Shown here: positions 27,869-50,319 of the stretch, piece after piece
Position numbering within the stretch: position 1 is the first letter of the stretch
Layout: the number at the start of each line of letters is the position of its first letter
Assembly: GCA_945888435.1 (NCBI GenBank)
Contig: CAMCZW010000008.1
Coordinates: 2,235-66,234, forward strand
DNA: 64,000 nt
Reading direction: 5' to 3'
Origin: a bacterium UBP8_UBA817
GTDB taxonomy: Bacteria > Margulisbacteria > Marinamargulisbacteria > SXXA01 > SICP01
The notes under the pieces: generated by a model
Told to the model about the DNA's origin: nothing
Databases searched by the model: none
Seen by the model: the letters and a program-made list of their open reading frames with translations, nothing else
Program-made: the position numbers and the translations under genes

Positions 27869-28818
27869 AAAAACACATTATTCTGTTAATTTTAATACTC
27901 GGACTAATCACACTATTCGCCAAGAATAGCGATGCTCAAGCCCGATTTTTTATGCCCACAGAAGTAGGTAGTTCGGCTGAAATGATCGCACGGGGAAATA
28001 TCGAAGGCTTCAGCAATACAGCCGAAGTCCTTTTAGAAAACCCAGCATCACTTCACACGATCAAACATTTTTCAGTATCCGCATTCACCACAACATTTAT
28101 GGATGAAGTAACTTACCAAGCCGTATCCATCGCCCTCAAAACAAAAAAAGGAGTCATCGGAGCGGCCTATATGTCTGCAGGTGTCGATGACATCACCAAA
28201 ACGTATCAAGATCAAGATGAAATCACAAATCCGCTAGGAATCATTATTCCAGTTGGAACATTTAAATACAGTACCGAAGTCGCTAAATTAAGCTACCAAT
28301 TTTCTCAAACAAAACGTCTTCACTGGGGAATATCTGGTGACTACTACGTCACTACAATCGACACAGTTAGAGGGACGGGATACAACATGGATGCCGGAGT
28401 CAAATATGACGGAAAAAAACTAGACATGGCACTAGCGATTAAAAACTTTTTACCTGGATATGATGTATCATATACGGGTGGCGAGTCAGATGGAAAAGAA
28501 GAAGTCCTACCAGCTGAGATTGTCTTTGTATCAAGATACACACTAGGCCCGATCAATTTATTTGGTCAAATTAAGTCAGGTGGCCGTTACGATCTAGTCA
28601 CGAAATCAGGTGCAATCAGCTATAAACCAGGATTTTTTCCATGGATAGAATTCACCGCTGGTTATAAAGAATTCGGAGTTCTTGATACAATTGAAACGAA
28701 CACGACCTTAGGAGTTGGGTTAACACTAGAAAACGTTAAATTTAATTACGCACTTGAATCAAGCGAGCATATCGAATTTGATAAAAAACATTATTTTTCT
28801 GTGGGGATAAAATTCTAA
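27865..28818 (+). CDS. Outer-membrane beta-barrel protein (possibly T9SS PorP/SprF- or PorQ-like)
   Basis: It has a signal peptide, alternating amphipathic strands and a C-terminal ...GIKF ending in Phe. It overlaps the upstream gene by 4 nt and sits 14 nt upstream of the giant gene. Confidence 0.4.
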   Translation: MKKHIILLILILGLITLFAKNSDAQARFFMPTEVGSSAEMIARGNIEGFSNTAEVLLENPASLHTIKHFSVSAFTTTFMDEVTYQAVSIALKTKKGVIGAAYMSAGVDDITKTYQDQDEITNPLGIIIPVGTFKYSTEVAKLSYQFSQTKRLHWGISGDYYVTTIDTVRGTGYNMDAGVKYDGKKLDMALAIKNFLPGYDVSYTGGESDGKEEVLPAEIVFVSRYTLGPINLFGQIKSGGRYDLVTKSGAISYKPGFFPWIEFTAGYKEFGVLDTIETNTTLGVGLTLENVKFNYALESSEHIEFDKKHYFSVGIKF

Positions 28819-28832
28819 GATATGACAAAAAT

Positions 28833-31800
28833 ATGAAAATAAAATCAATCATTTGGAGTTGTTTTTTAATCTGTTTCCTTTGCAGTCCGATTACTGCAAG
28901 TGTAGAGCTCCAAGTGTCTGGAAGCCTTCCGCCTATTAACGGAACCTTTATTTCAGGTAGTCATGCCGCAACAATTGGGATTTATAAAGGCACTACAGGC
29001 ACCCCCGTATGGTCAGAGCCAATTGCCAGCGTAACATTCAGAAACGGAATGTTTACAACCATTATCGGAAAAGTCACGCCCCTTGAAGCAAGCTATTTAT
29101 ACGTCACAAATCCACATATTGGCATCACTCTCACAGACACCCCTCATACAATTCAATTTGTTAAACTCACCGCATCACCATACGCATTCAAAGCCGCGGT
29201 AGCAGAGCGCGCCCGTAAAGTCTCAGCCAATGTCATCACCGGAACAATGGTTTCAACAGCAAACTTATCAAAAGGGCTATATGTTAAAGCAAGTAGCCAA
29301 AATTACTCCCTATTCGTCAATGCAAATAGCGTAGGGATTGGGAAATCAAATCCAACCACCAAGCTCGATATAAACGGAATCATCAATGCCGACGGATTTA
29401 GAATTAGAGGAGAAGATATCGCAGGAGCTCTCTCCTGGAAACCTAACACCGTCATCACCCAAAATATTTACTTTAATACAGGCCGGGTAGGAATCGGAAC
29501 CTCCATCCCCCGCTACACATTAGAAGTTGCAGGCACCATTAATGCCTCTGAATTATTTACCAAATCTAGAAAAATCTCATCCACATTAGATTGGCAACGA
29601 TCTCCAGTCGCATCAGAAAATTTGTATTTTATTAACCTGGATAAAAAGGTCGGTATTGGAGTAGAAAATCCAAGATCAAAACTTCATGTATTAAACGAGA
29701 TTAGAGTATCCACCAACGTCTATCCTGCGGCGGTTGGTATGATTAGAAGATCCTCTGCAAATAATGAGATTGAAGGTTATACCACCAGGGGCTGGTTACC
29801 CCTCACCGGCGTACGAGGCGGCGGCCAAAAAGATCGTCTAACTTTTTTTACAACTCCTAAAAATATTAGCTCTAGCCCATTATTTCTTCAAAATCATACT
29901 AATTCTTTTGTAGGAGTTGGAGTCTCCGCCCCCAACTCAACACTTCAGATCAAAGAAACCAATTCTAATAAAAAATTATTTCAAGTAACTTCAACACAAA
30001 ATAAAACATTGCTAATGGTTGGCTCTACAGGCAACGTTGGGATCGGAACCCCTACTCCAAACCAAAAGCTAAAAGTAATTGGCAGCCTCGCTGCTGACGA
30101 TATCACACTAAACGGCCTATCTATCCTTCTCGCAGTATCAAAAGACTCTGTATGGCTATTAAACGCAAGTCATAATGTCTACTATATGTTAGGGAATGTC
30201 GGGATTGGCCAAAACAGACCTGAAAGCCTTTTAGAAATTGCCCAAAGAACCAACTCAAATGATGACCCCGCCATTACATTAACCAACGGTAGAAATGTCA
30301 GCTATACCATGGGAGTCGATAACGATAAGCCAGATACATTTAGAGTAGAGTTTGGAACCACGCTTGGATCAACATCTCCATTATTTGTCGCAAAAAATAA
30401 CTTTTTAGGTATTGGCTTAGAAACCCCCTTAGCGCCCCTTCATATCAACGGAAAAATAGGAACTGTTTTTAGCGGGACATTTTACGGAGTCCCAGAAGAA
30501 ACTGCACAAGAACTCGATCCGTTAACCGGTGATGAGCTTATCCCGACTCTTCCAAAAGAAGGTCCTGGGACTCGATTTTTATGGCAACCTCAAAGGGCAA
30601 TATTCAGAGCTGGCCAAGTGGAATCAACATCCCCTTACCTAAGAGGAGAAAATTGGGATAATGAAAACTCAGGCAAATTTTCAAACGCATTTGGACTAAA
30701 TAGTATCGGTAGCGGTAATTACACCACCGTCGCCGGTGGAAAAAATAATATCGGCAGTGGCGCCTATTCGACCGTAGCTGGTGGAGAAAATAACATTTCA
30801 GAAGGAGACTTTTCACTTGCTGTCGGTAAAAATGCGACCGCACTTCACGAAGGATCTTTTATTTTTCTCGACTCATCAGCAGCCCCAACATCAACTATTA
30901 AACACAGTCAATTTTTAGTATTCGCGTCACGAGGTATGGGGATTGGAACAACCCTAACCACGGTAGACGGCATCAGATCAGGCTTAACTATTAAACGAGA
31001 TAAAAGTAGTGGGAACATTCTAAGATTTATCGGTTACCCCACAGAAAATACAGGAACCGCCCTATCATCATCTGGAAATATGATTATCGGATCACTCACT
31101 CCGGGAAACGCCAAATTATCCATAATGGGGGCAATGAACATCGGCGGAACACCAAGAACCCCCTCAGGCAATATTATTACGGCCAATATTAAGCTCAGCG
31201 TCAACCGTGACACCCCCGGTCTTTACAATACCTTCATAAAATCGATTGAAGCCATCACAACACCTGGCATGGCCATTTTAAGTGGCCCAGGGCACATCGG
31301 CATGGCCATTATTCCAAATATGTTTACAGCAGCAGACCTATTAACCGGACTTCAAGTAGGAAGCGGAAGTGTATTAGCTAGTGAGTACATTCAACCCGAC
31401 GGAACCCGCCTTGGAAAAGAAGCCGTCATTGTGTGGTTAGAAAATTCAGACGGAGATGTTTACTTCGTCTCTGGAAACACAGGAATTGGGATGGCATCAC
31501 CAAATAGTATGTTGGAACTATCTAATATCGGGAATACATTGTTTGCAAACCCACAAAATCCGGCAATTAGCTTCACCTCCTCACCCATTAGCTACAGTAT
31601 AGGGGTCAAAAGATCCGGAAACTCAGCACTCCGTATCATTAACGGCATCAATCTAACGACAGACACACCAGCATTTGCAATCCATGATAATAAAATCGGG
31701 ATTAAAACAGATACCCCGCTCGCCATGCTCCATGTCAACGGAAACGCAATTTTTAGAAGTGGCCTTGCTGTTGGAACCACCAATCAACAAGCCAATCAAT

Positions 31801-37800: not shown

Positions 37801-39209
37801 ATAGTGACGCAAATAAAATCAACTCACCCCTCACCCTATATTCAGGTACCTATCCAATCATCCCGATTACAACAGGGTCCGAAGACTCCATCCAAAAACA
37901 AGCCTTCCAATTTGTAGGCCGTGTCTTAATTAACGCAGGCCCAATTAGTGGAAGCGCACTCGATAATGAAGGCCCTGACAGCTATGGAAACCGAATGCCC
38001 GTATTAATTGTCAGCGGCGACATGAGAGTCGGAGCTAAAGTAAATAAAACTGAAACAGAATTTGCAGGCCAAGGAAAAAAACTAATTTTCTCAGGGGGAT
38101 ATCTTATCAATAGCAGTACGACCGATGGTAATAACGAAGATCCAATGCATATCACAAGAGTCAACACCAACGACCAGGCATCAGACCTGCAAATTTCGAT
38201 TGGAGAAGATCACACCATTAACAATGCCGCATTCAAAATAGGGGTTTCCGAAATAACCAATCAAAAATGGCATACATCCCTTGTCGCAAGAACTTTTTCA
38301 GAAACCTCAAATGCAAATACATCAATGGTCGGTATCGGATTAAACAATCCAACCACAGCCTTCTATGTTAAAGGGGTTGCCTCATTTAATATGAGACCGG
38401 ATGTCACCTCAAATACTACTACATTTGTAACCAACAACATCGCTCACCGCGCTCTCGTTCTCTTTGAAAACACGACTGCCAATGCCAACTCCCTTCTCAT
38501 CAAACATAGTGCGGAAGCTTCTAACGGGGTTGTCGGATCCGACTCTAATTTTATTAGCTTCAAATCATCAATATCACCCACAGGAGCACTGATCAGCTTA
38601 GGCGCAATTGAAGGGAACGGAGAAACAGGGGTTCAGCTCACATCTCCAGAAGCGGACTATGCAGAGTATTTACCAAAACTCTATAACAGCGAAGAAATTA
38701 GCTCAGGTCAAATTGTCGGGGTATTTAACGGCAAAGTCAGCAAGGTCACCAAGGGCGCAGATCAAATCATGGTCACCAGTGTGGCTCCAATTATCGCGGG
38801 TAACTGGCAAGGGGACACTAAAACCAAACAAGTCCTCGTCGCATTCCTAGGCCAAGTTCCAATTAAAATCAGAGGAGCAGTATCAGCAGGAGACTATGTC
38901 ATCCCATCAGGACTTAATGACGGGACTGGAATTGCCATTAAACCCAATGAAATCAACGCCAAAAATAGTGATCTCATTTTAGGCCGTGCCTGGGGGATTA
39001 ATTCAGTCGATAAAGTGAGCACCGTAACAGTGTTACTTGGATTAACAAAATCTCCAGCCCACACTATTTCGTCACAAAAAGTAGAAACATTGGCCGAAAA
39101 ATTAATCACTTTAGAAAGTAATATCGCTCAACTAGAAACAACATATCAAAATGTTCTTCAAAAACAACGTGATCAAATTAAACTTCTTAAAGCAAAGGTA
39201 AAAAAATAA
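28833..39209 (+). CDS. Giant secreted fibre-like repeat protein 1 (3458 aa): signal peptide, ~29 (V/I)GIGTxxPxxxLHVxG-core repeats, conserved C-terminal module + coiled coil
   Basis: It is an uninterrupted 10.4-kb ORF with a signal peptide ([22 protein letters not shown]|S). Repeat cores recur every ~40-150 aa (for example [34 protein letters not shown]). It is paralogous to the 40137 gene. Confidence 0.85.
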
Positions 39210-39211
39210 AA

Positions 39212-40147
39212 ATGATCAAATCTGCAATAAGTGGGTTTTTTAATTACCTCCAATATGAGAAAAAACTCTCAAAAAATTCGCTTGCCGCGTATCAAGTAGA
39301 TTTAGAGCAATTTACAATATATTGTCCAGAAGCAATTTCATCTTCCGTAGATTGTGAAAAATATATCTCGTATATTCAAAATCAAGTCTACAAACCAGCC
39401 ACGCTCAAAAGAAAAGCTTCCTCCATACAACAGTTTTTAGACTACCTCTATCATGATTCTTGGATCACTTCCAAAATTGAACTTCCAATAACCACACCAA
39501 AAATTCCAAAGACACTTCCAAAAGTAATGACCAAAGTCCAAATCGATTCCATTATTTCAGGCCTATTAAAAGTAAGTAAAACCCCATTGAGGGACCAGAT
39601 CGTCATCAACTTACTCTACAAATGTGGCCTCAGAGTTGATGAATGCGTTCATATCACGATAGAAAATATTAATCGCAATCTCACCATCAAAGTAATTGGA
39701 AAACGATCTAAAGAACGGATTATTCCAATCAGCAAAGAAACACTTAAACTTATTAAAAGTTATATCAAAAAAGAACGTACCTCACTTGAGAAATCGCCGT
39801 CTCCGTACTTGATTTTAAACCGGAGAGGCACGAACTTAACCAGGCAAGGGATTACCTTCATAATCAACAAAAATACTTTGGGGCCACTCACAACCCCTCA
39901 TATATTCAGACATAGTTTTGCCACTCATCTTTTAGAACGGGATGCGTCAATCCGAGAAGTACAAGAACTATTAGGTCACAGCTCCATAATTACCACACAA
40001 AAATACACACAGGTATCCACTAAAAAAAGAAGAAGTATCTATGATATCGCACATCCAAGAAGTCGCCATGCAAGAAAATTATTAGATTCAACGATGATAT
40101 GTTTAATGGAAGAACAAAGGAAAAATAAGGTACAATATGGCAAATAG
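39212..40147 (+). CDS. Tyrosine site-specific recombinase, XerD/XerC-like
   Basis: 311 aa with an N-terminal SAM-like core-binding domain (..[15 protein letters not shown]..). Catalytic-domain residues R (GLRVDE), H-x-x-R ([12 protein letters not shown]) and Y (..[15 protein letters not shown]) are present. It starts 2 nt after the stop of giant gene 1 and overlaps giant gene 2. Confidence 0.85.
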
Positions 40148-40172
40148 ATTTCCCACCATTAATTGGAGTCCC

Positions 40173-43100
40173 ATGAGAAAAATTTGCCTCGCATTTTTGA
40201 CAGCACTTTTGTTCACTGCCGGTGCGCATGCACAAAACACACCTGCGTATATTACATTCCAAGGAAGCATGTCTACCGCAACCGGCGGACTTGTAGAAGG
40301 CTCAAAAGAAATCAACTTGGCAATTACAGAAGGTAAAAACGGTCGTAAAACTTATGAGAAAACCGGAGTTACCACACTATTCGTCAATGGAAGTTGTAGT
40401 GTCGTCCTCGGTCCATTAACCACAACACAACTCGACATTGTATCTCCACACCTTCAAATTACATTAGATGGCTTATCCGCCTCATTTCCAATTCCAGCAT
40501 CGGCCTACGCAATTCAAGCCAGACTGGCCGACACTGTTAAAGCAGTTGATGCAGGAACAATCACAGGCACATTTACTTCCACTGTAAATATCAACAGCAA
40601 TTTATTTGTTAAAACCAATGTATTAACCGTTGTCAGCAGAAATGTAGGTATCGGTACAAGCGCACCTGCATACCCATTAGATGTAGTCGGAGAAGTCAAC
40701 GCTACAGGATTCAAAGTCAACGGAAGAGATATTGAAAGCGTCTTATCATGGCAAAAAAATGGAAGTACCCTCTATTACAACACAGGCAGAGTCGGAATCG
40801 CTTCAACAAATCCAACCACCCTACTAGATGTCGCCGGGACCATAAATGCGCGTGAATATCGACTCAATGGCGTCGAGCTCTCTAAAGCACTTGCTAACGA
40901 ACTCGCATGGAAACCAGCAATTAGAGACGGAGATATCTACTTTAACGACGGGAAACCAAATTCATCAGGAAGAATTGTAGGCAGCGTCGGTATCGGGACT
41001 AGTCAACCAGAAAGCCGTCTTGATGTCCGAGGTGAAATTAGAATTGGGGAAGCTGCTTTCGCACCAGGCTTAGGTACCATCCAATATGTCGGGGACGACT
41101 TTTTAGGGTATACCCCAGACGGTTGGGTATCCTTAATCGGGTTACAAGGTCAAGGAAATGCCAACCAAATTACCTACTGGACTGACACAGATAATATCGG
41201 AGGATCCGATAGCTTAGTCTGGGATTATACCAATCAAAAAATGGGGATTGGAACAAGCAATCCAACTGCACAATTAACCGTCAAATCAGTATCTGACAAC
41301 CGAGCAGTACTCAATGTCACAGATAAAAATAATAAAAGCTTACTCTATATCTCGTCTCGAAACGTCGGGATTGGAACAACCACCTCTAACGTTGCACTTA
41401 AAGTTAAAGGGACTGTAGATGCAGAAAATTACTTTTTAAATGGCGTCCCTATTGCGGCCGCATTACGATCATCCTCATTATGGAATTTCCAAAACGATGG
41501 ACGAATTTTTTATAGTAATGGCAACGTTGGTATCGGGACCACAGAGCCTCGAAATTTACTCGAATTAGCCTCTAGTCCATCAGTAAATCCAATCATTACC
41601 TTTGACATTAAAGACGTTAATTTATTTAGTATGGGGATTGATAGCAGAACCCCTTCAGCATTTATTTTGTCTCAAGGAAGTGACCTGTCAAAACCAATTT
41701 TCGTATTCAAAGAAAATAAAATCGGTGTCGGATTAAATAATCCAAGCGCTAATCTTCAAGTCAGCGGCAATGGCGGCATCTTGTTCACGGGAGAATTTGG
41801 ATCGAACGATCAAGTACAAGCGAGCGGAGCCGGGACCAGACTTATGTGGATACCTTCCAAAGCAGCCTTTAGAGCTGGCCACGTCGTCGCAAATCAATGG
41901 GACCATGCCAATATTGGTAATCATTCCGTTGCATTAGGTTACAACGTCACGGCCAATGGGCTCGCATCAACCGTCGTCGGGGGATACGAAAACTGGGCAA
42001 AGGGGGATTACTCCAGTGTCCTAGGAGGATTCCAAAATAGAGCTGAAGGCAATTATTCATTCGCTGCTGGCTACAAAGCCCTTGCTAACCAAATCGGCAC
42101 CTTCGTATGGGCCGATTATTCTCCAACCGCTCCCGTTCAAACATTTTCATCCACACAACGAGACCAGTTCCTAGTCCGCGCAAGTAATGGGGTCGGAATT
42201 AACACCAACCAAACCAATCAGACCTCCTTAACCGTCGCAAGAAAAATTCCAAGCGAATACATATTTAGAGCCATCGGAAATACGAATGCCCCAAATGCAT
42301 TAGTCGTCACAACTTCAGGCAATATCGGAATTGGGACTTCTGACCCTGGCACAGCAAAACTAGCAGTTATTTCTGGAAGAGTAGGAATCGGAACGACAGA
42401 CCCAATTGCCCCACTTACCATAAGTCCTAATGCAACTGATCAATATGTCTTTGTGGCCTACAGAGAAGATGGTAATCCAGCAATGTTTATTAGACGAGAT
42501 GGAAGAATTGCCATCGGTCATGCATTAAACTTCACATTCCCAGACGATGTGACAGTTGCGGTTGCTGGCAGTTTTGGTGGCCCTACATTCAAAAAAGTAG
42601 ACCCTCGTAATCCAAGTGCATCCGTCATTATTGGTGGTAACGCCGGTTCTCCATGGCTAGTTCCATCAGAGAACAACAACAACACCTTCTTCAACAGAGG
42701 ACGAGTAGGGATAGGAACCTCCGCCCCAAGATCACTTCTTGAATTATCAAACGCCAATGGAATCGCTCCAGTTATGACTTTTAATGTTGATAACTCCACA
42801 TTTTATAGTATGGGGGTTACCAAAAATAAATTTACTATTCAACCAACCCGTGGACTAAATGCAAGCTCTCCCCTATTTACGTTAGACGGTAATGGCATCG
42901 GTATTGGAATTGGGTATAAAACACCAAGCGCCTCCCTACATGTCGCAGGATCTTCAATTTTATCTGGAAATATCGCAGTAGGAACCAGCAATGTAAGCTC
43001 TATATTCAATATCAACGTCGGCGGCCGATTAAATACACAGCAACTATTTATCGACGGAGTCGAATACAATCCAGTTCCATCTAAATGGTTAACAGGCGCA

Positions 43101-46100
43101 GGCTCACAAATCTACTATAACGATGGAAACATTGGGATTGGAACATCCACACCAAGATCCAAATTAGAAGTACTAGGAACAATCTCTGCTAATGCCATCG
43201 TCCACTCCGGGACATTCACATTAAATGGTCGTCTAAGAACAACTGAGCTCCACCTGAGAGATACAGTCGCGCCTACACTTAAATACGGTAGAGTTATCGT
43301 TGACGATGATGAATTAATTTATATCGACCCAAGCGATCGAAGAAAAGTACTATCATCTCCACTTCAAAGAGACCGAAGCCTTACCAATTCAGGATATCTC
43401 GCTCACTGGTCAAGTGATTCAGATATAGGAGTCACCAATATTTTATGGGATCGCAGCAAAAAATCGCTTGATGTCTCAGGAAACATTGATTTAAGCAGTA
43501 CATTTTCAGAACCAAACGGAATCAAGATCAAGAGTAAATTATTAATGGGTGTCCCTTCAGGAATCAGCCTAACCACAACACTTAACCATAGTGGCGACTT
43601 AAGAAGAATTAAAGGTTATACAGGTGAAGACATAACCCTGAATATCAACCAAAACTGGGGCAACTCAACCGAAATCGTCACCATTAAAGGGATGAATTTA
43701 GAAATCACACAAGAAGATGCTAGTTTACTCCTTAACAGAGCCCGAGTCGTGGGATTACATGTCGATGTATCCAGCGTCAACGTTAATACCGCACAACGAG
43801 CATCCAAAGCAGCCGCTGTCTTTTTAGGTGGAAACGTTGGTATCGGATTAGAAAACCCGAGAGAAGCCCTTGAAGTTAATGGAACAGTCTCTGCGAACTA
43901 CTTCAACCTAACGGGTGGATTATTTGTTCCAGAATTATCCGTCAACACAAACGCTCTCGTTGCCTATCGAGATTCACTATCATTACTACCAAGAGTGGGA
44001 ATTGGACTCACAAATCCTTCAACCGAACTTGAAGTAAGAGGAACCACATCAACTAACATCATGACAATCACCGGCGGATTAACAGCCACCACGCTCAACG
44101 TTAACAGCGGAACCCTATTCGTAAATAGCGCTGGCCAAATCGGGATCGGAACCACCCTACCCAATGGGCAAATCGAAATTAAAAAAACATTACTATCAAC
44201 CACAGCAGATCCATTTATTGGTGAGAAAATAAACATTGTCATCGATGGCGCAGGGACGGACCAAACGTTTTCATTTAATCAAAATTTATCTGGGTTAAAA
44301 ATTAACTTTGCAAGTAATACAGGCAGCCAAATTGGAAGTGGCAAAAAAGCCATTGGTACTGACATTAATGCAACAAGAATGACCGTCGTAACCCAAAATA
44401 CATTAATTGGGCTTAATGTTGATGTAACAGGCACTGGCGGAAAACGATATGCAGGATTATTTTTAGGCGGAAAAGTGGGGATTGGAGTCACTCAGCCTCT
44501 CGCAGAATTACATGTCAGCGGAAGCATTTTAGCCGATAACCTATTCTTAAATGGAACTTTAGAATCCGAAAGAGCCACCTTTAATAGATTGACCGTCAAC
44601 ACGCTCGCACGCTTCAACGGATCCGTCACAATCAACCAATTAGAAGTACTGGGAACACTCACCGCAAATACATTTGTACTTGAAACAGCCCTTGAAGCCC
44701 AAAATGCAAATTTTGCAACAATTAATGCAAAATCAGCATCAATCAACACCCTTACCAAAACTCGGGATTTAACTATCAGAAGAAAACTAACTGCCCCTCA
44801 AGGAATATTTTCAGGCGGAGTCGGAATTGGAACCCCCGCACCAAGTAGCGGATTAAGTGTTAACGGCCCCCTACTCGCAACCAACATTGCAGCCTCCGAA
44901 ACTCTAAGTCTTACATCCGGCACAATGAATATCCTTGCGGGGACTCTATACGCCATCAATGGAAAAGTAGGGATTGGAACCACTCAACCACAAAACCTAC
45001 TTCACATTAAAACATCACGTGCTACAGAGTTTGATCCAACAGATACTCAAACATGGAATGCAATGAGAATTCAAAATGCAAACGACACTCTTAATACAGC
45101 CGCAAGTCTTTTATTTTTAGTCGATACCAATAGCCCCTCAATTAATATCGGGTCCGCCATTGGTGCGTTGCGTAGCACAGCTTCAAGGGGTGAACACGGA
45201 TCATCCCTATACTTCGCAACTGACCCCGCAACGGATGTCCCCACCATTAGAATGTTCATTTCATCAGAAGGGAATGTCGGGATTGGAACAACGACTCCAA
45301 CATCCATGCTTCATGTCAACGGAAGTTTAAAAGTAGACAATGTGGCGACTCTAAACACTTTAGCAACATCTCTCATTAGATCATCCGGAGAATTGGTCTT
45401 TAGACCATCTGACACCATCATCGTTGAAGGGTATGTCAGTACCAACCAAGTCATTCAAGTTAATAATGGATTAAGCTTCAAACACGCAACAACTATCCCA
45501 ACCCAAAGGACAGGGTATGGAACCCTTTACGTCGATGGAAGAAGTAACGATTTATTCTTCTTAAAACCAAGCGGAGCTTCAGTCAACATTACCCGAGGCT
45601 TTACGGGTAAAGCCTATAGAATCCCATTCTTCAACTCTCAAGGTCAACTTGACGATGACACAGAGCTATACTGGAATAACGCCACAAAAACATTCAGAAT
45701 CGGTACAGCCAATGTAGTAGCAATCGTTGAACACCGAGTAACAGTTGATAATCTAATCAATCAAAGTCTTGCCGCAGAAAAAATCACAATGGACTTTGGA
45801 GATCGAACCACTGCCAGCTCAGCGATATTTAGAGGGCTCCAAATTAATCTCACAGGACAAACACCCTCAGATCCAGATAATTTTGGAAGACTCGCTCAAA
45901 ATGAAACAGCCATCGGACTAGATATCGATCTATCGACACTAAGATCTGAAAGAAGCACTTCCCAATCACTTGGTGGGGTTGTTTTACAAGGATTTAAATA
46001 CGCAGCCCTATTTAGAGGTGGAAGCGTCGGAGTAGGCACTGCAACTCCAATAGCAGGCCTCCATGTAGTCAGCGAAACTGCCGGAAAAGCAGCCTTTAGA

Positions 46101-49100
46101 GTCGATACTACTCGAAAAGATTCTGTAGTTATGACCAATGCATTAGTCGTGAGTTCCAACAGCTTAGTCGGTATCGGAATAGCAGATCCAACCGCTAAAC
46201 TTCATATCAAAGCCAATGATGATCCATTTATTAATGACGCTGACGAAGCGGTTTTCAAAGCAACAAAAACAGATGGTAGTCCACTATTCATCGTTAAAAA
46301 TAATGGAAGAGTCGGAATCGGAACAACATCTCCTGTATCAGCACTCACTGTTTCAGGAAACTTGTTTGCGACCACAGCATCCTTTAATGAAATCACCGCG
46401 ACCACTCTCAACGTCTCCAACGGTGGTTTATTTGTAAACGCAGCAGGAGAAGTCGGATTTGGAACAACTCAACCTCAAGGAAATCTCAGCTTCTCAAAAA
46501 CGATTAATGCCGCCAATATTCCGGCAGCAGGCTTTATCTCTCAAAAAATGTTACTTAACCTCAACGGAGGAACTGACTCGTTAACATTTAACCTTAACCG
46601 AGATATTACCGGCATGGATATCGCTATCCAATCCGCTGCAGCCAGTCAATTAGGCTCAGGAAGCACAGCCCGAGGGCTTTCAATCGATCTAAGGCAAGTC
46701 GCTCTAGACACCAGTAGTAAGATTGTCGGGTTAGACATCGATGTCACAGGCGCAACAGGAACAAGATACGCCGCAATTTTGAATGGGGGACGCGTCGGTA
46801 TCGGGGTAACAAACCCAACCACCACATTAGACGTCTCTGGAGATATTAAAGCAACCGATCTTGATTTAACTGGTCGATTAACCGCAGGTCAAATTACTGC
46901 AAATCAGTTAGTCGTTCTCCAAACATCTATATTTAATGGATCCATTACAGCCAATAATTTAGTCGCCACCACCATTTCTGCAAATAACATCACATTAAGT
47001 GGCTTGTTTAGAATTTCAACCGCATCCATTACAACGCTTAATGCCAATATCGCAACGTTCAATAAATTAGGGATACGAGTCAGCTCCCCACGACAACCAT
47101 TAGATGTCTCTGGAAATGCCATCATCTCAGGCGGATTATTAGGGGTAGGCGTCACTAACCCAACCGCACTCCTTCATATCGGGACATCAACATCAGCAAG
47201 CCCACTCAGAGTCCAAATTAACAATGGCTTCTCAAACCCATACGCACTAGTAGTCAGTGGAAACGGACGTATCGGGATCAGCACTTCAAACCCAGTCGCA
47301 AAATTAAGTATTTCTAAAGTACTAGGAGATACCGATGATTTATTGTTAATCGAAAAATCAGACGCAACCCCTCTGATGAAAATTACCAATGCAGGTCTCG
47401 CAGGGATTGGGACCGCAGTTCCAGTAGCTCAGTTACATATCAAGTCAACCGCAAGCGTATCGCCATTAAGAATTGATGGATCAACATCAAATCCCCTACT
47501 TCATATCGGGCCTACAGGGAACGTCGGGGTAGGAATTAGTAATCCAGCAGCAACGCTCCATGTTAGCGGGAATATCCCTCTGATTGTTGGAAACGCCACC
47601 AACCCATATTCACTCTATGTTGGAGACACCGGACGTGTCGGGGTTGGAACGTCAGCATTAACCTACCGATTCAATGTCAACGGCAAAATGTTAATGGGAT
47701 CATTAGGATCAATCACATTACCAAGTTGGATTGAGTCTAATAACAATATTGGATTAATTTCAGCAAAAGGAGCTGATTTTTCAATCCTAGGTCTAGAAAG
47801 ACGAAGTGGAGGCACCACTGACTATGACTCCGTAATTCAGTGGGGATCAAGTTCAGATGACAGCCTTTTATTTAAAAACAATGCAAATCAAACTATCATG
47901 CAACTCATTGGAAGCGGAAAACTAGGGATTAATGCCACTCCAACCGCAGCACTTCATGTCAGTGGTAATACACCTCTTATCATTCAAAGTGCAAGCCGAC
48001 CATTTGCATTAATCGTCTCAAGCAACGGATTTGTAGGGATTAATACCAATCGTCCTCTAGTTGCCCTCGATGTTAACGGAACCATTCGTGCAAAAGGATT
48101 TAGTGTCACTCATGAAAGTCTGAACGCATCAACCGTCAATATTACAAAACAAATGTCACTTCTAAGAACCGTCACAACTAACATCGCAGTTACAATGCAA
48201 AATATTAGATTAAATCTTGAAAATGATATTAACAATGAAGTAGTAGGCCTAGATATCGTCCTCGACTCTCTGCCAAACGCAGCCCTCGGTGGCGCACGGG
48301 ATTACTCATTATTTAATACCAATGCCTATGGACTTAAAGTCGACATGACGGGGCTTCTAACCACAGACCCCACATTAGGTGGAAGTTCAAATGGCAAAAA
48401 ATACGCAGCCGCTTTCTTAGGTGGCGCAGTGGGGATTGGATTAACTAACCCAGATACCACTCTACAAGTCGTAGGTCCTGCCGGCGGCAATATTGCAAAA
48501 TTTGGAAGTATAGCAGCAGACTTAACAATTAAAGACGAGAATAACGGTACCATCCTTATGTCAATAAGAAATCTAATTAGCCGTGATACGGAAGCGCAAA
48601 AAACACTCTATCTTTCTGGAGATAAAGTAGGGATTGGAGTCGATCCACAAACCGATGAGGCTAGTGTTAAATTTGTAGTCAATGGAGATATTAGAGTTGG
48701 GATGAAAACCAGCGCATCAACCAGCAGTGGTAACCGAGTTTACTTCTCTGGCGGACCAGATTTGAGCCTTACCCAAGACAATGACAACAATAGCCCATTA
48801 TGGATTGGACGAAGCAACGTCAGAGCCAACCAATCTGAATTACTAGTCAATGCCGGTAACGGTGACGGGTTAGATCGATTTGTGGTTGGGTTTACAAAAA
48901 GTACAACATTCAGACCGGTCTTACAGGTTATCCCATCTGTAAATGCCGCGGGTACTCTATATAAAAGTAGAGTGGGTATCAGTGATGGATCTAGCACAAC
49001 ATTTAAACCATCTGCACAGCTCCATGTATTTGGATCAACAAGTGGCAGTGCAAGCAGTATTTCAAGCCACCTTGTCACGTTTGAGAACAACGGCGGTGAA

Positions 49101-49814
49101 GATGCCGATTCTCTCGTCATCTGGCATACCGGCTATGCAAATGCGTCCGCAGTTCCAACCGGATCTAACTTTATTACATTCGCCGACCAAACCCACATCT
49201 TAGGTGAAATCGAAGGCAGTGGAGATAACGGTATCCGATTCAAAACCAACGGTGCGGACTATGCAGAGTATCTTCCTAAAATTAATCCAACTGAAGTCAT
49301 TGCCAAAGGGGATATCGTCGGTGTTTATAACGGTAAAATCAGCCTAAAAACAAGCGGCGCATCTCAAGTACTCGTCAGAAGTTCGGCCGCAAGTATCGCA
49401 GGAAACTGGCCAGGTGAAGAAAAAGAAAAAGAATATGAACTTATCGCTTTCTTTGGACAAGTTAAAGTAAAGGTAACCGGCCCAATTAATGAAGGTGATT
49501 ATATTATCCCATCCAGTCAAAATGACGGAACTGGTATTGCAATCCCTAAAGAAGCGATTACCCCTAAGGACTTCTCAAATATCGTTGGTCAAGCATGGCA
49601 AACTAACCTTAGCAAAGAAACTAAATTAGTTTTAGCCGGTGTCGGATTCAACTTCACAATGCCAAAAATTGGAAGTTATCTTGAAAGAATAGATTCTCTA
49701 GAAATAAAAATGAAAGAGTTAGAAAATAAACAAATTCAAATTGAAACCAACTTCAAATCAGAATTTGAACGTCAATCAAAAGAAATCGATAAATTACTTA
49801 AAAAGTTAAACTAA
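40173..49814 (+). CDS. Giant secreted fibre-like repeat protein 2 (~3213-3225 aa), paralogue of protein 1
   Basis: The ORF begins at 40137, but the signal peptide MRKICLAFLTALLFTAGAHA|Q starts at 40173, which has GGAG upstream. It has the same repeat cores (for example RVGIGTSAPRSLLELS, NVGIGTTTPTSMLHVNGS) and the same C-terminal module as protein 1. Confidence 0.85.
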   Translation: MRKICLAFLTALLFTAGAHAQNTPAYITFQGSMSTATGGLVEGSKEINLAITEGKNGRKTYEKTGVTTLFVNGSCSVVLGPLTTTQLDIVSPHLQITLDGLSASFPIPASAYAIQARLADTVKAVDAGTITGTFTSTVNINSNLFVKTNVLTVVSRNVGIGTSAPAYPLDVVGEVNATGFKVNGRDIESVLSWQKNGSTLYYNTGRVGIASTNPTTLLDVAGTINAREYRLNGVELSKALANELAWKPAIRDGDIYFNDGKPNSSGRIVGSVGIGTSQPESRLDVRGEIRIGEAAFAPGLGTIQYVGDDFLGYTPDGWVSLIGLQGQGNANQITYWTDTDNIGGSDSLVWDYTNQKMGIGTSNPTAQLTVKSVSDNRAVLNVTDKNNKSLLYISSRNVGIGTTTSNVALKVKGTVDAENYFLNGVPIAAALRSSSLWNFQNDGRIFYSNGNVGIGTTEPRNLLELASSPSVNPIITFDIKDVNLFSMGIDSRTPSAFILSQGSDLSKPIFVFKENKIGVGLNNPSANLQVSGNGGILFTGEFGSNDQVQASGAGTRLMWIPSKAAFRAGHVVANQWDHANIGNHSVALGYNVTANGLASTVVGGYENWAKGDYSSVLGGFQNRAEGNYSFAAGYKALANQIGTFVWADYSPTAPVQTFSSTQRDQFLVRASNGVGINTNQTNQTSLTVARKIPSEYIFRAIGNTNAPNALVVTTSGNIGIGTSDPGTAKLAVISGRVGIGTTDPIAPLTISPNATDQYVFVAYREDGNPAMFIRRDGRIAIGHALNFTFPDDVTVAVAGSFGGPTFKKVDPRNPSASVIIGGNAGSPWLVPSENNNNTFFNRGRVGIGTSAPRSLLELSNANGIAPVMTFNVDNSTFYSMGVTKNKFTIQPTRGLNASSPLFTLDGNGIGIGIGYKTPSASLHVAGSSILSGNIAVGTSNVSSIFNINVGGRLNTQQLFIDGVEYNPVPSKWLTGAGSQIYYNDGNIGIGTSTPRSKLEVLGTISANAIVHSGTFTLNGRLRTTELHLRDTVAPTLKYGRVIVDDDELIYIDPSDRRKVLSSPLQRDRSLTNSGYLAHWSSDSDIGVTNILWDRSKKSLDVSGNIDLSSTFSEPNGIKIKSKLLMGVPSGISLTTTLNHSGDLRRIKGYTGEDITLNINQNWGNSTEIVTIKGMNLEITQEDASLLLNRARVVGLHVDVSSVNVNTAQRASKAAAVFLGGNVGIGLENPREALEVNGTVSANYFNLTGGLFVPELSVNTNALVAYRDSLSLLPRVGIGLTNPSTELEVRGTTSTNIMTITGGLTATTLNVNSGTLFVNSAGQIGIGTTLPNGQIEIKKTLLSTTADPFIGEKINIVIDGAGTDQTFSFNQNLSGLKINFASNTGSQIGSGKKAIGTDINATRMTVVTQNTLIGLNVDVTGTGGKRYAGLFLGGKVGIGVTQPLAELHVSGSILADNLFLNGTLESERATFNRLTVNTLARFNGSVTINQLEVLGTLTANTFVLETALEAQNANFATINAKSASINTLTKTRDLTIRRKLTAPQGIFSGGVGIGTPAPSSGLSVNGPLLATNIAASETLSLTSGTMNILAGTLYAINGKVGIGTTQPQNLLHIKTSRATEFDPTDTQTWNAMRIQNANDTLNTAASLLFLVDTNSPSINIGSAIGALRSTASRGEHGSSLYFATDPATDVPTIRMFISSEGNVGIGTTTPTSMLHVNGSLKVDNVATLNTLATSLIRSSGELVFRPSDTIIVEGYVSTNQVIQVNNGLSFKHATTIPTQRTGYGTLYVDGRSNDLFFLKPSGASVNITRGFTGKAYRIPFFNSQGQLDDDTELYWNNATKTFRIGTANVVAIVEHRVTVDNLINQSLAAEKITMDFGDRTTASSAIFRGLQINLTGQTPSDPDNFGRLAQNETAIGLDIDLSTLRSERSTSQSLGGVVLQGFKYAALFRGGSVGVGTATPIAGLHVVSETAGKAAFRVDTTRKDSVVMTNALVVSSNSLVGIGIADPTAKLHIKANDDPFINDADEAVFKATKTDGSPLFIVKNNGRVGIGTTSPVSALTVSGNLFATTASFNEITATTLNVSNGGLFVNAAGEVGFGTTQPQGNLSFSKTINAANIPAAGFISQKMLLNLNGGTDSLTFNLNRDITGMDIAIQSAAASQLGSGSTARGLSIDLRQVALDTSSKIVGLDIDVTGATGTRYAAILNGGRVGIGVTNPTTTLDVSGDIKATDLDLTGRLTAGQITANQLVVLQTSIFNGSITANNLVATTISANNITLSGLFRISTASITTLNANIATFNKLGIRVSSPRQPLDVSGNAIISGGLLGVGVTNPTALLHIGTSTSASPLRVQINNGFSNPYALVVSGNGRIGISTSNPVAKLSISKVLGDTDDLLLIEKSDATPLMKITNAGLAGIGTAVPVAQLHIKSTASVSPLRIDGSTSNPLLHIGPTGNVGVGISNPAATLHVSGNIPLIVGNATNPYSLYVGDTGRVGVGTSALTYRFNVNGKMLMGSLGSITLPSWIESNNNIGLISAKGADFSILGLERRSGGTTDYDSVIQWGSSSDDSLLFKNNANQTIMQLIGSGKLGINATPTAALHVSGNTPLIIQSASRPFALIVSSNGFVGINTNRPLVALDVNGTIRAKGFSVTHESLNASTVNITKQMSLLRTVTTNIAVTMQNIRLNLENDINNEVVGLDIVLDSLPNAALGGARDYSLFNTNAYGLKVDMTGLLTTDPTLGGSSNGKKYAAAFLGGAVGIGLTNPDTTLQVVGPAGGNIAKFGSIAADLTIKDENNGTILMSIRNLISRDTEAQKTLYLSGDKVGIGVDPQTDEASVKFVVNGDIRVGMKTSASTSSGNRVYFSGGPDLSLTQDNDNNSPLWIGRSNVRANQSELLVNAGNGDGLDRFVVGFTKSTTFRPVLQVIPSVNAAGTLYKSRVGISDGSSTTFKPSAQLHVFGSTSGSASSISSHLVTFENNGGEDADSLVIWHTGYANASAVPTGSNFITFADQTHILGEIEGSGDNGIRFKTNGADYAEYLPKINPTEVIAKGDIVGVYNGKISLKTSGASQVLVRSSAASIAGNWPGEEKEKEYELIAFFGQVKVKVTGPINEGDYIIPSSQNDGTGIAIPKEAITPKDFSNIVGQAWQTNLSKETKLVLAGVGFNFTMPKIGSYLERIDSLEIKMKELENKQIQIETNFKSEFERQSKEIDKLLKKLN

Positions 49815-49818
49815 GTCA

Positions 49819-50319
49819 TTGCAAGCATCACGAATATTGACCATCGTTAGCTTACTCGATCGATTAAATGAAACACTACTCCAGTCCAAAAAAATAGAGG
49901 ACTGGTTATGGGAATGGGTTAAGATTGAAGGCTTTAAAATCACAGGTCAATGTCAGCATACTGGCCGCTGCTGTAAAAAGATCATGATCTATACTCAAAA
50001 TAGGGCCATCCAAACACAAAAAGAATTTATCCAATTTCAAGAAAATAAAAATCCCCTGCCCTTCATTCCCAATTACAATCAAAAAAACTCAGAAAAAATC
50101 GACTCATTTGACTGTCAAAATCTTAGCCAATACAATACCTGCAAAGATTATCAAAATCGTCCCTTAGCCTGCAAAAATTACCCTCAAAGCAATATTTTAT
50201 CCGAAACACCTCTCTACGAAGGCTGTGGCTACCGCATCCAAAGTAGCTCTCCACCCAAATGGGCACATCCCAAGTTAATTCAAAAAATCAAAGTGCTACA
50301 AAAAAAACTAGAACTTTGA
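49819..50319 (+). CDS. Cys-rich protein, putative Zn/Fe-chelating CxxCxxCC (YkgJ-like) domain
   Basis: 166 aa with a CQHTGRCC cluster plus further Cys (CQN..C..C..C). It starts 5 nt after giant gene 2. Confidence 0.35.
   Translation: MQASRILTIVSLLDRLNETLLQSKKIEDWLWEWVKIEGFKITGQCQHTGRCCKKIMIYTQNRAIQTQKEFIQFQENKNPLPFIPNYNQKNSEKIDSFDCQNLSQYNTCKDYQNRPLACKNYPQSNILSETPLYEGCGYRIQSSSPPKWAHPKLIQKIKVLQKKLEL

What the first reader, a model, noticed from the sequence alone, without database searches (positions are those of the whole stretch)
28833..49814. Repeat architecture: about 25-30 degenerate (V/I)GIGTxxPxxxLHVxG cores per protein; the antisense VPIPT ORFs are shadows
Seen in sequence: protein 1 has about 29 repeat cores ([67 protein letters not shown], and so on). 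Protein 2 is similar. The GIGT nucleotide consensus ggNatNggNacN reverse-complements to V-P-I-P-T. This produces more than 30 spurious minus-strand ORFs in the track (for example 30604-30843, 42218-42421, 44798-44983). The spacing suggests a beta-helical or beta-solenoid fibre with variable inserts. Several inserts contain short GG(K/E)NN(I/A) motifs (aa ~620-680 of protein 1), reminiscent of a nested sub-repeat.
Basis: seen in the sequence. Interest (0 to 1): 0.5.

Follow-up and report, generated by a model that had tools for sequence, protein, structure and literature searches.

The report
Giant tail-fibre-like surface fibre proteins
Two neighbouring 10-kb genes of an uncultured Margulisbacteria-like bacterium encode 3,200-3,500-residue secreted proteins built like phage tail fibres, and the repeated (V/I)GIGTxxPxxxLxV motif is a structural loop already known from such fibres, so the repeat is real but of a known kind.

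Summary
A profile of the core motif finds 23-28 copies in protein 1 (window 28833-39209) and 32-38 in protein 2 (40137-49814). Fifty shuffles of protein 2 gave none. Spacing is irregular (19-358 residues, commonly 41-54), with older duplications of 100-290 residues. The minus-strand ORFs are by-products of the sense coding, but only 11 of 31 carry the VPIPT-type peptide.

The motif matches the published "capping loop" of the intertwined trimeric beta-helix in Bdellovibrio MAT fibres and phage tail fibres. Sequence profiles and a predicted fold both point to those fibres. The GG(K/E)NN sub-repeat is a YadA/UspA1-type head repeat. The last ~185 residues are a phi29 gp12-type (Peptidase_G2-like) self-cleaving intramolecular chaperone plus a coiled coil.

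Both genes are vertically conserved chromosomal genes across Margulisiibacteriota. In all five genomes examined, the protein-1-type gene follows a small protein with a T9SS-like tail and a PorV/PorQ-like barrel.

Verdict: new member of a known kind (bacterial tail-fibre-like trimeric surface fibres), unusually long. Function (adhesion) and trimer state are inferred, not shown.

The parts
27269..27868 (+). 199-aa secreted protein with a T9SS type-A sorting-domain-like C-terminus (LVYPNPF...). First gene of the conserved cassette upstream of protein 1.
   Evidence: TIGR04183 23.6 bits against a cutoff of 23. 38-48% identical counterparts lie directly upstream of the protein-1-type gene in L007, L086 and L087. 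Same gene sizes in a fifth genome.
27865..28818 (+). 317-aa PorV/PorQ-family-like outer-membrane barrel candidate, ending in ...HYFSVGIKF. It overlaps the previous gene by 4 nt and ends 14 nt before protein 1.
   Evidence: NF033709 E 1.1e-11, below the curated cutoff. ~39% identical counterparts in L007, L086 and L087 in the same position.
28833..39209 (+). Protein 1 gene (3458 aa), a giant tail-fibre-like protein.
   Evidence: Collinear with protein 2 at 30% identity over ~2800 aa and 36% over the C-terminal ~400 aa.
28833..28898 (+). Protein 1 signal peptide ([22 protein letters not shown]|S), read from the sequence.
   Evidence: Inspection only, no predictor was run.
28899..29282 (+). Protein 1 N-terminal domain (~aa 23-150), conserved in the family.
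   Evidence: Alignment A3. A profile from Margulis-type sequences only hits the N-termini of distant giant relatives, some of which end in Peptidase_S74, at E 1e-17 to 1e-27.
29331..38372 (+). Protein 1 fibre body with 23 strong (28 including weak) capping-loop cores, at aa 167, 219, 273, 360, 402, 456, 525, 883, 955, 1029, 1332, 1378, 1484, 1657, 2011, 2055, 2096, 2143, 2251, 2511, 2642, 2819 and 3166.
30630..30902 (+). Protein 1 YadA/UspA1-head-like repeats (the GG(K/E)NN sub-repeat, aa ~600-690).
   Evidence: UspA1 3PR7 E 6.9e-5. Pfam YadA_head is weak, E 0.041.
37974..38654 (+). Protein 1 distal beta-rich region (aa 3048-3274). It would be the C-terminal tip after cleavage.
   Evidence: Homologous to protein 2 aa 2846-3040. 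The model of the protein 2 counterpart is only moderately confident, pLDDT 50-65.
38655..39062 (+). Protein 1 phi29-gp12-type (Peptidase_G2-like) intramolecular chaperone. It starts at D3275 of the invariant ADYAEY. Cleavage is predicted between A3274 and D3275.
39063..39206 (+). Protein 1 C-terminal coiled coil (~aa 3411-3458).
   Evidence: By alignment to the protein 2 model helix.
39212..40147 (+). XerC/D-like tyrosine recombinase between the two giant genes. It is context, not part of the fibre.
   Evidence: PF00589 E 7e-37. TIGR02224/02225 at ~240 bits, below the equivalog cutoffs. The same position is conserved in L005/L007 and L086.
40137..49814 (+). Protein 2 gene (3225 aa), a giant tail-fibre-like protein.
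40137..40232 (+). Protein 2 signal peptide (...LLFTAGAHA|QNT), read from the sequence.
   Evidence: Inspection only.
40233..40586 (+). Protein 2 N-terminal conserved domain (~aa 33-150).
40644..48473 (+). Protein 2 fibre body with 32 strong (38 including weak) cores, from aa 170 to aa 2765. It includes an internally duplicated ~290-aa super-module (aa 1286-1575 and 2058-2348).
   Evidence: PDB profile hits to Bdellovibrio fibres. AF2 model plus Foldseek.
41859..42116 (+). Protein 2 YadA/UspA1-head-like repeats (aa ~575-660).
   Evidence: PF05658 26.7 bits against a gathering score of 25. UspA1 3NTN E 7.3e-4.
48672..49256 (+). Protein 2 distal beta-rich region (aa 2846-3040), the predicted mature tip.
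49257..49667 (+). Protein 2 G2-type intramolecular chaperone, starting at D3041. Cleavage is predicted between A3040 and D3041.
   Evidence: Profile A1 against PDB: phi29 gp12 C-terminal fragment 3GQH E 2.6e-5, with the D aligned to residue 1 of the cleaved fragment. Model pLDDT is 80-94 in this part. Foldseek top hit is 3GQH, prob 1.00, TM 0.56 on the target.
49668..49811 (+). Protein 2 C-terminal coiled coil (aa 3178-3225).
   Evidence: Single long helix at residues 343-389 of the model.
42218..42421 (-). Example shadow ORF (67 aa) containing VPIPT and VPIPI, antisense to two GIGT cores.
   Evidence: No Pfam hit.
44798..44983 (-). Example shadow ORF (61 aa) containing two VPIPT.
49819..50319 (+). 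CxxCxxCC-domain protein directly after protein 2. Conserved neighbour, role unknown.
   Evidence: PF03692 E 8.8e-7. Same position in L005.

Best explanation
Both genes encode Sec-exported proteins that most likely assemble as homotrimeric, phage-tail-fibre-like surface fibres. These are of the kind described as 'mosaic adhesive trimer' (MAT) fibres in Bdellovibrio.

Architecture. After a signal peptide and a conserved ~120-residue N-terminal domain (presumed cell-proximal) comes ~2,700-3,000 residues of concatenated beta-helix modules. The recurrent (V/I)GIGTxxPxxxLxV core is the 'capping loop' that closes the edge of each module. This is why it recurs 23-38 times at irregular intervals: the modules differ in length and type, including a YadA/UspA1-like head segment and duplicated 100-290-residue super-modules.

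C-terminus. The last ~185 residues are a phi29-gp12-type (Peptidase_G2-like) intramolecular chaperone followed by a coiled coil. By analogy, it nucleates trimerisation from the C-terminal end and then cuts itself off before the invariant Asp of G-A-D-Y-A-E-Y (protein 1 A3274|D3275, protein 2 A3040|D3041). That would expose the distal beta-rich region as the fibre tip.

Length. Scaling from the published Bdellovibrio fragments (370 aa = 142 A; 334 aa = 95 A) gives mature fibres of roughly 85-125 nm.

What is shown: the motif statistics, the homology of the fibre body and of the C-terminal domain, and the conserved chromosomal synteny.

What is inferred: the trimer state, autocleavage, surface exposure, the adhesive role and the length.

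The minus-strand ORFs are non-coding shadows of the sense frame.
For: - Motif: 23/32 significant cores against 0 in 50 shuffles. Orthologues and paralogues of 2.8-4.9 kaa carry 15-40 each.
- Published consensus: the motif equals the capping-loop consensus of trimeric beta-helix fibres (PMC10769870).
- Sequence homology of the fibre body: phmmer of protein 2 against PDB gives Bd2133 at 2.1e-5. Profile A2 gives Bd2133 3e-13, Bd3182 1.8e-7, Bd1334 2.3e-5, Bd2439 8.7e-5, lambda gpJ 3e-4 and MyRF 9e-3. PHROG tail-fibre families hit at 1e-18 to 3e-31.
- Fold of the fibre body: the AF2 model of protein 2 aa 1950-2350 has pLDDT 75-92 over residues 10-160. Its top 10 Foldseek PDB hits are all Bdellovibrio fibres.
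- C-terminus: A-D-Y-A-E is invariant and the following Tyr nearly invariant in 23 sequences. The profile hits the phi29 gp12 C-terminal fragment, whose first residue aligns with the Asp, and also the Dpo31 tailspike chaperone domain. Pfam Peptidase_G2 gives E 3e-4 in both proteins and is precomputed in several orthologues. The fold match to 3GQH has prob 1.00 and TM 0.56.
- Head repeats.
- Not a prophage: housekeeping neighbours (SepF, MazG, RseP-type M50, YchF) and gene order conserved in distant Margulisiibacteriota genomes.
Against: - No whole-protein Pfam or NCBIfam family passes its threshold. Peptidase_G2 scores 20.6-20.7 bits against a cutoff of 25.
- Only monomer models could be made. 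The fibre model has mean pLDDT 65.8, with TM-scores to the solved fibres of 0.1-0.35, so the fold evidence is local.
- Homology of the N-terminal domain to the Bdellovibrio MAT N-domain could not be tested.
- How a Sec-exported 350-kDa chain would cross the outer membrane is unknown.
- There are no expression or localisation data.
Confidence: 0.75

Rival explanations
1. The proteins are single-chain beta-solenoid or repeat surface proteins (S-layer-like or bactofilin-like) that do not form intertwined trimers. On this reading the motif is simply a turn of a monomeric solenoid.
For: Weak Bactofilin match at protein 2 aa 2232-2276, 27.5 bits against 27.9. The monomer AF2 model gives regular beta structure.
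Against: All significant structural relatives are obligate trimers. The C-terminal domain is of a type whose known role is trimer assembly. A C-terminal coiled coil follows it.
Confidence: 0.1
2. They are cargo or components of a type IX-like secretion or gliding apparatus (SprB-like adhesins), exported and anchored through the PorV/PorQ-like barrel encoded upstream.
For: The adjacent conserved genes resemble a T9SS sorting-domain protein and PorV/PorQ. This cassette precedes the protein-1-type gene in 5 of 5 genomes examined.
Against: Neither giant protein has a T9SS C-terminal sorting domain. Their C-terminus is an intramolecular chaperone plus coiled coil. The barrel and tail matches are at or below curated cutoffs. 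No other T9SS core genes were seen in the window. This rival concerns export and anchoring and is compatible with the fibre architecture.
Confidence: 0.08
3. They are trimeric autotransporter adhesins (type Vc).
For: YadA/UspA1 head repeats in both proteins.
Against: There is no YadA_anchor barrel. The C-terminus is a gp12-type chaperone plus a helix. The head repeats cover less than 3% of the chain.
Confidence: 0.02
4. They are tail-fibre genes of an integrated or misassembled phage.
For: PHROG tail-fibre hits. A tyrosine recombinase lies between the genes.
Against: There are Sec signal peptides and no other phage genes. The flanks are housekeeping genes. The same gene order, including the recombinase, is kept at 30-50% protein identity across distant genomes.
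Confidence: 0.02

Closest known systems
Bdellovibrio bacteriovorus MAT (mosaic adhesive trimer) fibres: Bd2133, Bd3182, Bd1334, Bd2439 (PMC10769870; PDB 8OND, 8OJN/8ONB, 8OML, 8OL4)
   Same: Signal peptide, a long beta-helical fibre body, a recurrent capping-loop motif of the same consensus, mosaic module composition, and a bacterial (not viral) chromosomal gene. These are the best sequence-profile and fold matches.
   Different: About three times longer (3.2-3.5 kaa against ~1 kaa). The C-terminus is a G2-type chaperone plus coiled coil, not an S74 domain or an adhesin tip. There is an internal YadA-head segment. Two paralogues sit in a locus conserved across the phylum. N-domain homology is untested. 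The host is not known to be a predator.
Bacteriophage phi29 pre-neck appendage gp12 auto-chaperone (Peptidase_G2 IMC, PF11962; PDB 3GQH, 3SUC), and the Dpo31 tailspike chaperone domain
   Same: A C-terminal domain that starts with D-(F/Y)-A-E-Y. There is a conserved second block (FFGQVxVKV here, LLGQIAVRI in gp12) and a fold match.
   Different: Below the Pfam threshold. It carries an extra ~45-residue C-terminal coiled coil. It caps a fibre rather than the phi29 gp12 or Dpo31 tailspike. Cleavage is not demonstrated here.
S74 intramolecular-chaperone fibres and spikes: T5 pb1, K1F endosialidase, MyRF
   Same: The triple-beta-helix stalk carries the same capping-loop motif. MyRF and related fibres are hit weakly by the profile (PMC10769870).
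   Different: There is no S74 domain and no SDxxxK motif. A different chaperone family is used.
YadA/UspA1 trimeric autotransporter heads
   Same: Head repeats of the type GxYSTVAGGxNNxA.
   Different: Only a ~70-90-residue insert. There is no autotransporter anchor.

Membership tests
MAT / bacterial tail-fibre-like trimeric fibres (Caulton et al. 2024) | N-terminal Sec signal peptide | tested here: met
   Read from the translations: a hydrophobic core followed by ITA|S in protein 1 and AHA|Q in protein 2. No predictor was available.
MAT / bacterial tail-fibre-like trimeric fibres (Caulton et al. 2024) | Conserved ~130-aa beta-rich domain right after the signal peptide, homologous to that of the Bdellovibrio MATs | not testable with these tools
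   A conserved N-domain exists here and is shared with distant giant relatives, some of which end in S74. No Bdellovibrio N-domain sequence or structure could be retrieved.
MAT / bacterial tail-fibre-like trimeric fibres (Caulton et al. 2024) | Recurrent capping-loop motif V-G-G/N-pi-x-x-P-x-x-x-L | tested here: met
   23-28 and 32-38 copies, against 0 in 50 shuffles. Consensus taken from PMC10769870.
MAT / bacterial tail-fibre-like trimeric fibres (Caulton et al. 2024) | Fibre body homologous to the solved MAT beta-helix domains | tested here: met
   Profile hit E 3e-13 to Bd2133 plus three other MATs. The Foldseek top 10 are all MATs, though TM-scores are low because only a monomer was modelled.
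MAT / bacterial tail-fibre-like trimeric fibres (Caulton et al. 2024) | Intertwined homotrimer | not testable with these tools
   Only monomer prediction was available.
MAT / bacterial tail-fibre-like trimeric fibres (Caulton et al. 2024) | C-terminus is an S74 chaperone-protease (SDxxxK) or an adhesin tip domain | tested here: not met
   No PF13884 hit. The C-terminus is G2-type instead. More distant relatives do carry PF13884.
Peptidase_G2 intramolecular chaperone (PF11962) | Score above the Pfam gathering threshold | tested here: not met
   20.7 and 20.6 bits against 25. PF11962 is precomputed for orthologues P0011, P0015, P0017, P0022, P0040 and P0047.
Peptidase_G2 intramolecular chaperone (PF11962) | Domain boundary D-x-x-E aligned with the first residue of the released gp12 fragment | tested here: met
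   Invariant A-D-Y-A-E. The D aligns with residue 1 of 3GQH, DFAEYFE.
Peptidase_G2 intramolecular chaperone (PF11962) | Fold of the gp12 auto-chaperone | tested here: met
   Model pLDDT 80-94 in this part. 3GQH is the top hit, prob 1.00, TM 0.56 on the target, 178 aligned columns.
Peptidase_G2 intramolecular chaperone (PF11962) | Autoproteolytic release after trimerisation | not testable with these tools
   Needs biochemistry.
Trimeric autotransporter adhesin (type Vc) | C-terminal YadA-type membrane anchor barrel | tested here: not met
   No PF03895 hit. The C-terminus is a chaperone plus a helix.
T9SS cargo | C-terminal sorting domain on the cargo itself | tested here: not met
   NCBIfam found nothing in either giant protein. 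The only TIGR04183 match is in the small upstream protein.

The most novel reading that the evidence does not exclude
The two giant fibres, together with the small T9SS-tail-like protein and the PorV/PorQ-like barrel always encoded just upstream of the protein-1-type gene, form a previously undescribed surface-fibre system conserved across Margulisiibacteriota. In this reading the barrel is the outer-membrane anchor or export partner that has not yet been identified for MAT-type fibres. The fibres could correspond to the fimbria-like filaments seen by TEM on the Marinamargulisbacterium 'Ruthmannia eludens' (PMC6784892), and could mediate attachment to hosts or other cells.
Probability: 0.25. 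Interest if true: 0.6.

Novelty: new member of a known kind. Interest (0 to 1): 0.35.

Why it matters
Margulisiibacteriota is an uncultured sister phylum of the Cyanobacteria. Genomes of its class Marinamargulisbacteria are small, 0.5-2 Mb according to PMC6784892. Two ~10-kb fibre genes kept in a fixed chromosomal position across the phylum are therefore a large investment and probably define the cell surface.

Recognising them as tail-fibre-like trimers with a self-cleaving G2-type chaperone turns about 7,000 residues of 'hypothetical protein' into testable domains. It gives a precise predicted cleavage site. It also points to a candidate outer-membrane partner for this class of fibre.

The C-terminal cassette is widespread: 1,679 clusters at E<=1e-30. 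Yet it falls below the Pfam threshold in the two window proteins, which is useful for annotation.

For genome scanning, this is a clean example of repeat-driven antisense shadow ORFs.

Tried and rejected
- My first whole-protein self-BLAST showed no internal hits. That was an artefact: HSPs enclosed by the identity hit are culled. The fragment-against-whole comparison replaced it.
- Whole-protein Pfam and NCBIfam scans gave essentially nothing. Scanning segments was needed.
- A profile search with the N-terminal domain returned only short fragments and no named Bdellovibrio protein.
- I tried to retrieve full-length Bd2133 with fragments printed by HMMER. One query was too short. The other found only 44-68-aa fragments. 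MAT N-domain homology therefore stays untested.
- Three 'tail fiber domain-containing' proteins (P0083, P0102, P0116) that I picked by eye as sharing the N-domain, two of which I added to alignment A3, were not supported by the Margulis-only profile.
- The P0033 look-up was not on record.
- The genome scan did not return the window's own species. The best hit was 57% identical. The taxon is therefore inferred from the nearest named relatives and from the unnamed MAG GCA_947493445.1.
- I considered and rejected three readings: prophage, trimeric autotransporter, and a shufflon or inversion role for the recombinase. On the last point, both genes are on the same strand and the recombinase position is conserved across genomes.
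Full report
**What is there.** The region holds two very long + strand ORFs: protein 1 (28833-39209, 3458 aa) and protein 2 (40137-49814, 3225 aa). A 311-aa tyrosine recombinase gene lies between them at 39212-40147. Both proteins begin with a typical signal peptide. They are collinear paralogues, 30% identical over ~2,800 residues and 36% over the last ~400.

**Checking the repeat.**
- A profile built from 46 strict cores detects 23 copies in protein 1 and 32 in protein 2 at i-E<=1e-3. The counts rise to 28 and 38 at i-E<=1.
- Fifty shuffles of protein 2 gave no copy.
- The spacing is not periodic. It ranges from 19 to 358 residues, with a cluster at 41-54 residues and several long core-free stretches of 170-360 residues.
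- My first self-BLAST found nothing. That was an artefact of HSP culling.
- Comparing 150-residue fragments with the whole protein shows many significant internal matches. The best are protein 2 1286-1575 vs 2058-2348 (~41% identity, E down to 4e-30) and protein 1 440-540 vs 867-970 (E 1e-18).
- The equivalent duplications occur in both paralogues, so they predate the split between the two genes.
- The repeat is therefore ancient, degenerate and modular, not a recent tandem array.

**Antisense ORFs.**
- Reading the reverse complement of GTN-GGN-ATH-GGN-ACN one base out of register gives V-P-I-P-T.
- All 31 VPIPT-like peptides lie in a single minus frame.
- There are 31 minus-strand ORFs of at least 60 aa in the two genes, and 26 of them are in that frame. 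Only 11 contain a VPIPT-type peptide.
- The main cause is that this minus frame has 119 and 88 stops, against 238-326 in the other two minus frames.
- Glycine and isoleucine codons in the cores vary freely at third positions, as expected if selection acts on the + strand protein.
- They are shadows. The GIGT codons explain about a third of them.

**What the motif is.**
- phmmer of protein 2 against PDB sequences finds the Bdellovibrio fibre Bd2133 (8OND), another fibre (8OJN) and the UspA1 head.
- Caulton et al. 2024 (PMC10769870) describe a family of 'mosaic adhesive trimer' fibres in Bdellovibrio. These have a signal peptide, a conserved N-terminal domain, an intertwined trimeric beta-helix body, and either an S74 chaperone-protease or an adhesin tip.
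- The paper reports 'capping loops' on the edges of the beta-helix domains with the consensus V-G-G/N-pi-x-x-P-x-x-x-L. The same loops are found in MyRF, and the paper finds the beta-helix itself structurally similar to those of phage T5 pb1 and K1F endosialidase.
- A profile of protein 2 aa 1950-2350 with 26 homologues (A2) hits Bd2133 at 3e-13, Bd3182 at 1.8e-7, Bd1334 at 2.3e-5 and Bd2439 at 8.7e-5. It then hits lambda gpJ and MyRF.
- An AF2 monomer model of that stretch has mean pLDDT 65.8, with 75-92 over residues 10-160. The Bdellovibrio fibres are its top ten Foldseek PDB matches, with probabilities 0.69-1.00. TM-scores are low, as expected when one chain of an intertwined trimer is modelled alone.
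- PHROG tail-fibre families also match.

**The sub-repeat.** The GG(K/E)NN stretch of protein 1 (aa ~600-690) matches UspA1 head repeats at E 6.9e-5. The equivalent stretch of protein 2 passes the Pfam YadA_head threshold, 26.7 against 25 bits, and matches 3NTN at 7.3e-4. It is a short YadA-type head module inserted in the fibre. No autotransporter anchor is present.

**The C-terminus.**
- Across the family the sequence G-(V/I)-(R/Q)-(F/Y)-x-T-x-G-A-D-Y-A-E-Y-L lies ~187 residues before the end. A-D-Y-A-E is invariant in 23 aligned sequences.
- The profile of this region hits the phi29 gp12 C-terminal fragment 3GQH at E 2.6e-5. The invariant Asp aligns to residue 1 of that fragment (DFAEYFE...). 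A second conserved block also aligns (FFGQVxVKV with LLGQIAVRI). The chaperone domain of the Dpo31 tailspike is hit as well.
- Pfam Peptidase_G2 matches both proteins at E 3e-4, below threshold. It is precomputed for several orthologues.
- The AF2 model of protein 2 aa 2836-3225 is confident from residue ~200 on (pLDDT 80-94). It ends in a single 47-residue helix.
- Its best PDB matches are 3GQH (prob 1.00, TM 0.56 on the target) and premature gp12 3SUC.
- phi29 gp12 carries an intramolecular chaperone domain that is absent from the final virion (PMC9863714).
- I therefore predict trimerisation-coupled self-cleavage at A3274|D3275 in protein 1 and A3040|D3041 in protein 2. This is an inference.
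- The cassette is widespread. It occurs in 6,400 50%-identity clusters at E<=1e-3 and 1,679 at E<=1e-30. In the listed hits it nearly always lies at the extreme C-terminus of proteins of 190-5,651 residues. It is found in many phyla.

**Whose genes.**
- The recombinase, with both giant genes beside it, is found on 18 contigs, including the unnamed MAG GCA_947493445.1.
- Full-length relatives of protein 2 (80% down to ~25% identity, 2.8-4.9 kaa) are almost all unnamed. Those with names are Candidatus Margulisbacteria, Margulisiibacteriota or Marinamargulisbacteria.
- Flanking genes are housekeeping: SepF, MazG, an M50 site-2 protease, a PLP enzyme, YchF and an M16 peptidase.
- In a distant Margulisiibacteriota MAG the order is: 202-aa ORF, 315-aa ORF, protein-1-like gene, Rrf2, epimerase, NUDIX, Xer, M50 fragment, protein-2-like gene, CxxCxxCC, 154-aa ORF, YchF. 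A third genome is similar.
- This rules out a prophage. It makes the recombinase a conserved chromosomal neighbour rather than an inversion switch.
- A Margulis-only profile of the N-terminal domain hits the N-termini of more distant giant proteins, some of which end in Peptidase_S74 (E 1e-17 to 1e-27; Pfam column). The same N-domain and fibre body are therefore combined with either chaperone type, which is the mosaic logic described for MAT fibres.

**Upstream cassette.**
- The 199-aa protein (27269-27868) ends in a T9SS type-A sorting-domain-like tail (TIGR04183 23.6 bits against 23).
- The 317-aa protein (27865-28818) resembles PorV/PorQ barrels (E 1e-11, below cutoff) and ends in an aromatic residue.
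- ORFs of the same sizes, with the same 4-nt overlap and the same position directly before the protein-1-type gene, occur in all five genomes examined. In the three with DNA available they are 38-48% identical.
- This is the most interesting lead. It may be the outer-membrane partner of the fibre. It is circumstantial.

**Mechanism and confidence.**
- Most likely (0.75), these are trimeric, tail-fibre-like cell-surface fibres.
- The modules are delimited by capping loops.
- They are folded from the C-terminus by a self-removing G2-type chaperone.
- Lengths of roughly 85-125 nm follow from scaling the published fragment dimensions (370 aa = 142 A, 334 aa = 95 A). This is an inference.
- An adhesive role is plausible by analogy and unproven.
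- TEM of the Marinamargulisbacterium 'Ruthmannia eludens' shows fimbria-like filaments reaching the host vacuole membrane (PMC6784892). Any link to these proteins is speculation.

**Novelty.** All the modules are known, and the architecture is that of a known kind. New here are:
- the size;
- the G2-type rather than S74 chaperone on a capping-loop fibre;
- the conserved two-paralogue locus across the phylum;
- the associated barrel cassette.

I rate it a new member of a known kind, of moderate interest.

Noticed in passing
window 27269-28818: A 199-aa protein with a T9SS-like sorting tail and a 317-aa PorV/PorQ-like barrel overlap by 4 nt and sit directly upstream of protein 1. The same pair precedes the protein-1-type giant gene in all five genomes checked, at 38-48% identity where DNA was available. 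It is a candidate outer-membrane anchor or export partner.
   Followed up: partly
window 39212-40147: A XerC/D-like tyrosine recombinase starts 3 nt after the protein 1 stop and overlaps the protein 2 start by 11 nt. A recombinase gene also lies between the two giant genes in distant Margulisiibacteriota genomes (L005/L007, L086). It is probably the housekeeping Xer kept in synteny, not a switch.
   Followed up: partly
window 49819-50319: A CxxCxxCC (PF03692) protein lies directly downstream of protein 2, followed by a 151-aa ORF and YchF. The same order is seen in L005. Any relation to the fibre is unknown.
   Followed up: no
loci L032-L085; The C-terminal cassette (GADYAEY ... FFGQV ... coiled coil) is found at the end of proteins of 190 to 5,651 aa in Saprospiraceae, other Bacteroidota, Verrucomicrobiota, Gemmatimonas, Sedimenticola, Planctomycetota and others. 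It occurs in 1,679 clusters at E<=1e-30. It scores below the Pfam Peptidase_G2 threshold in the two window proteins, so a dedicated model would improve annotation.
   Followed up: partly
window 46830-46964 (protein 2 aa 2232-2276): This is a near-threshold Bactofilin match (27.5 against 27.9 bits), in a stretch of short xxTAxxLxV-like repeats. The surrounding stretch of the family profile (A2 positions 270-344) aligns to the beta-helix of the lambda central tail fibre gpJ. It is likely a plain triple-beta-helix segment without capping loops.
   Followed up: partly
(P0032/P0051, L016, L023, L034): Some close family members sit in assemblies labelled Thermoproteota archaeon, Rickettsiales or Actinomycetota. 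Given the 35-45% identity to Margulisiibacteriota proteins and the identical synteny (L086), these labels look like binning or naming errors.
   Followed up: no
PMC6784892: The Marinamargulisbacterium 'Ruthmannia eludens' shows thin fimbria-like structures and outer-membrane vesicles by TEM. Genomes of this class are 0.5-2 Mb, so two ~10-kb fibre genes would be about 1-4% of such a genome.
   Followed up: no
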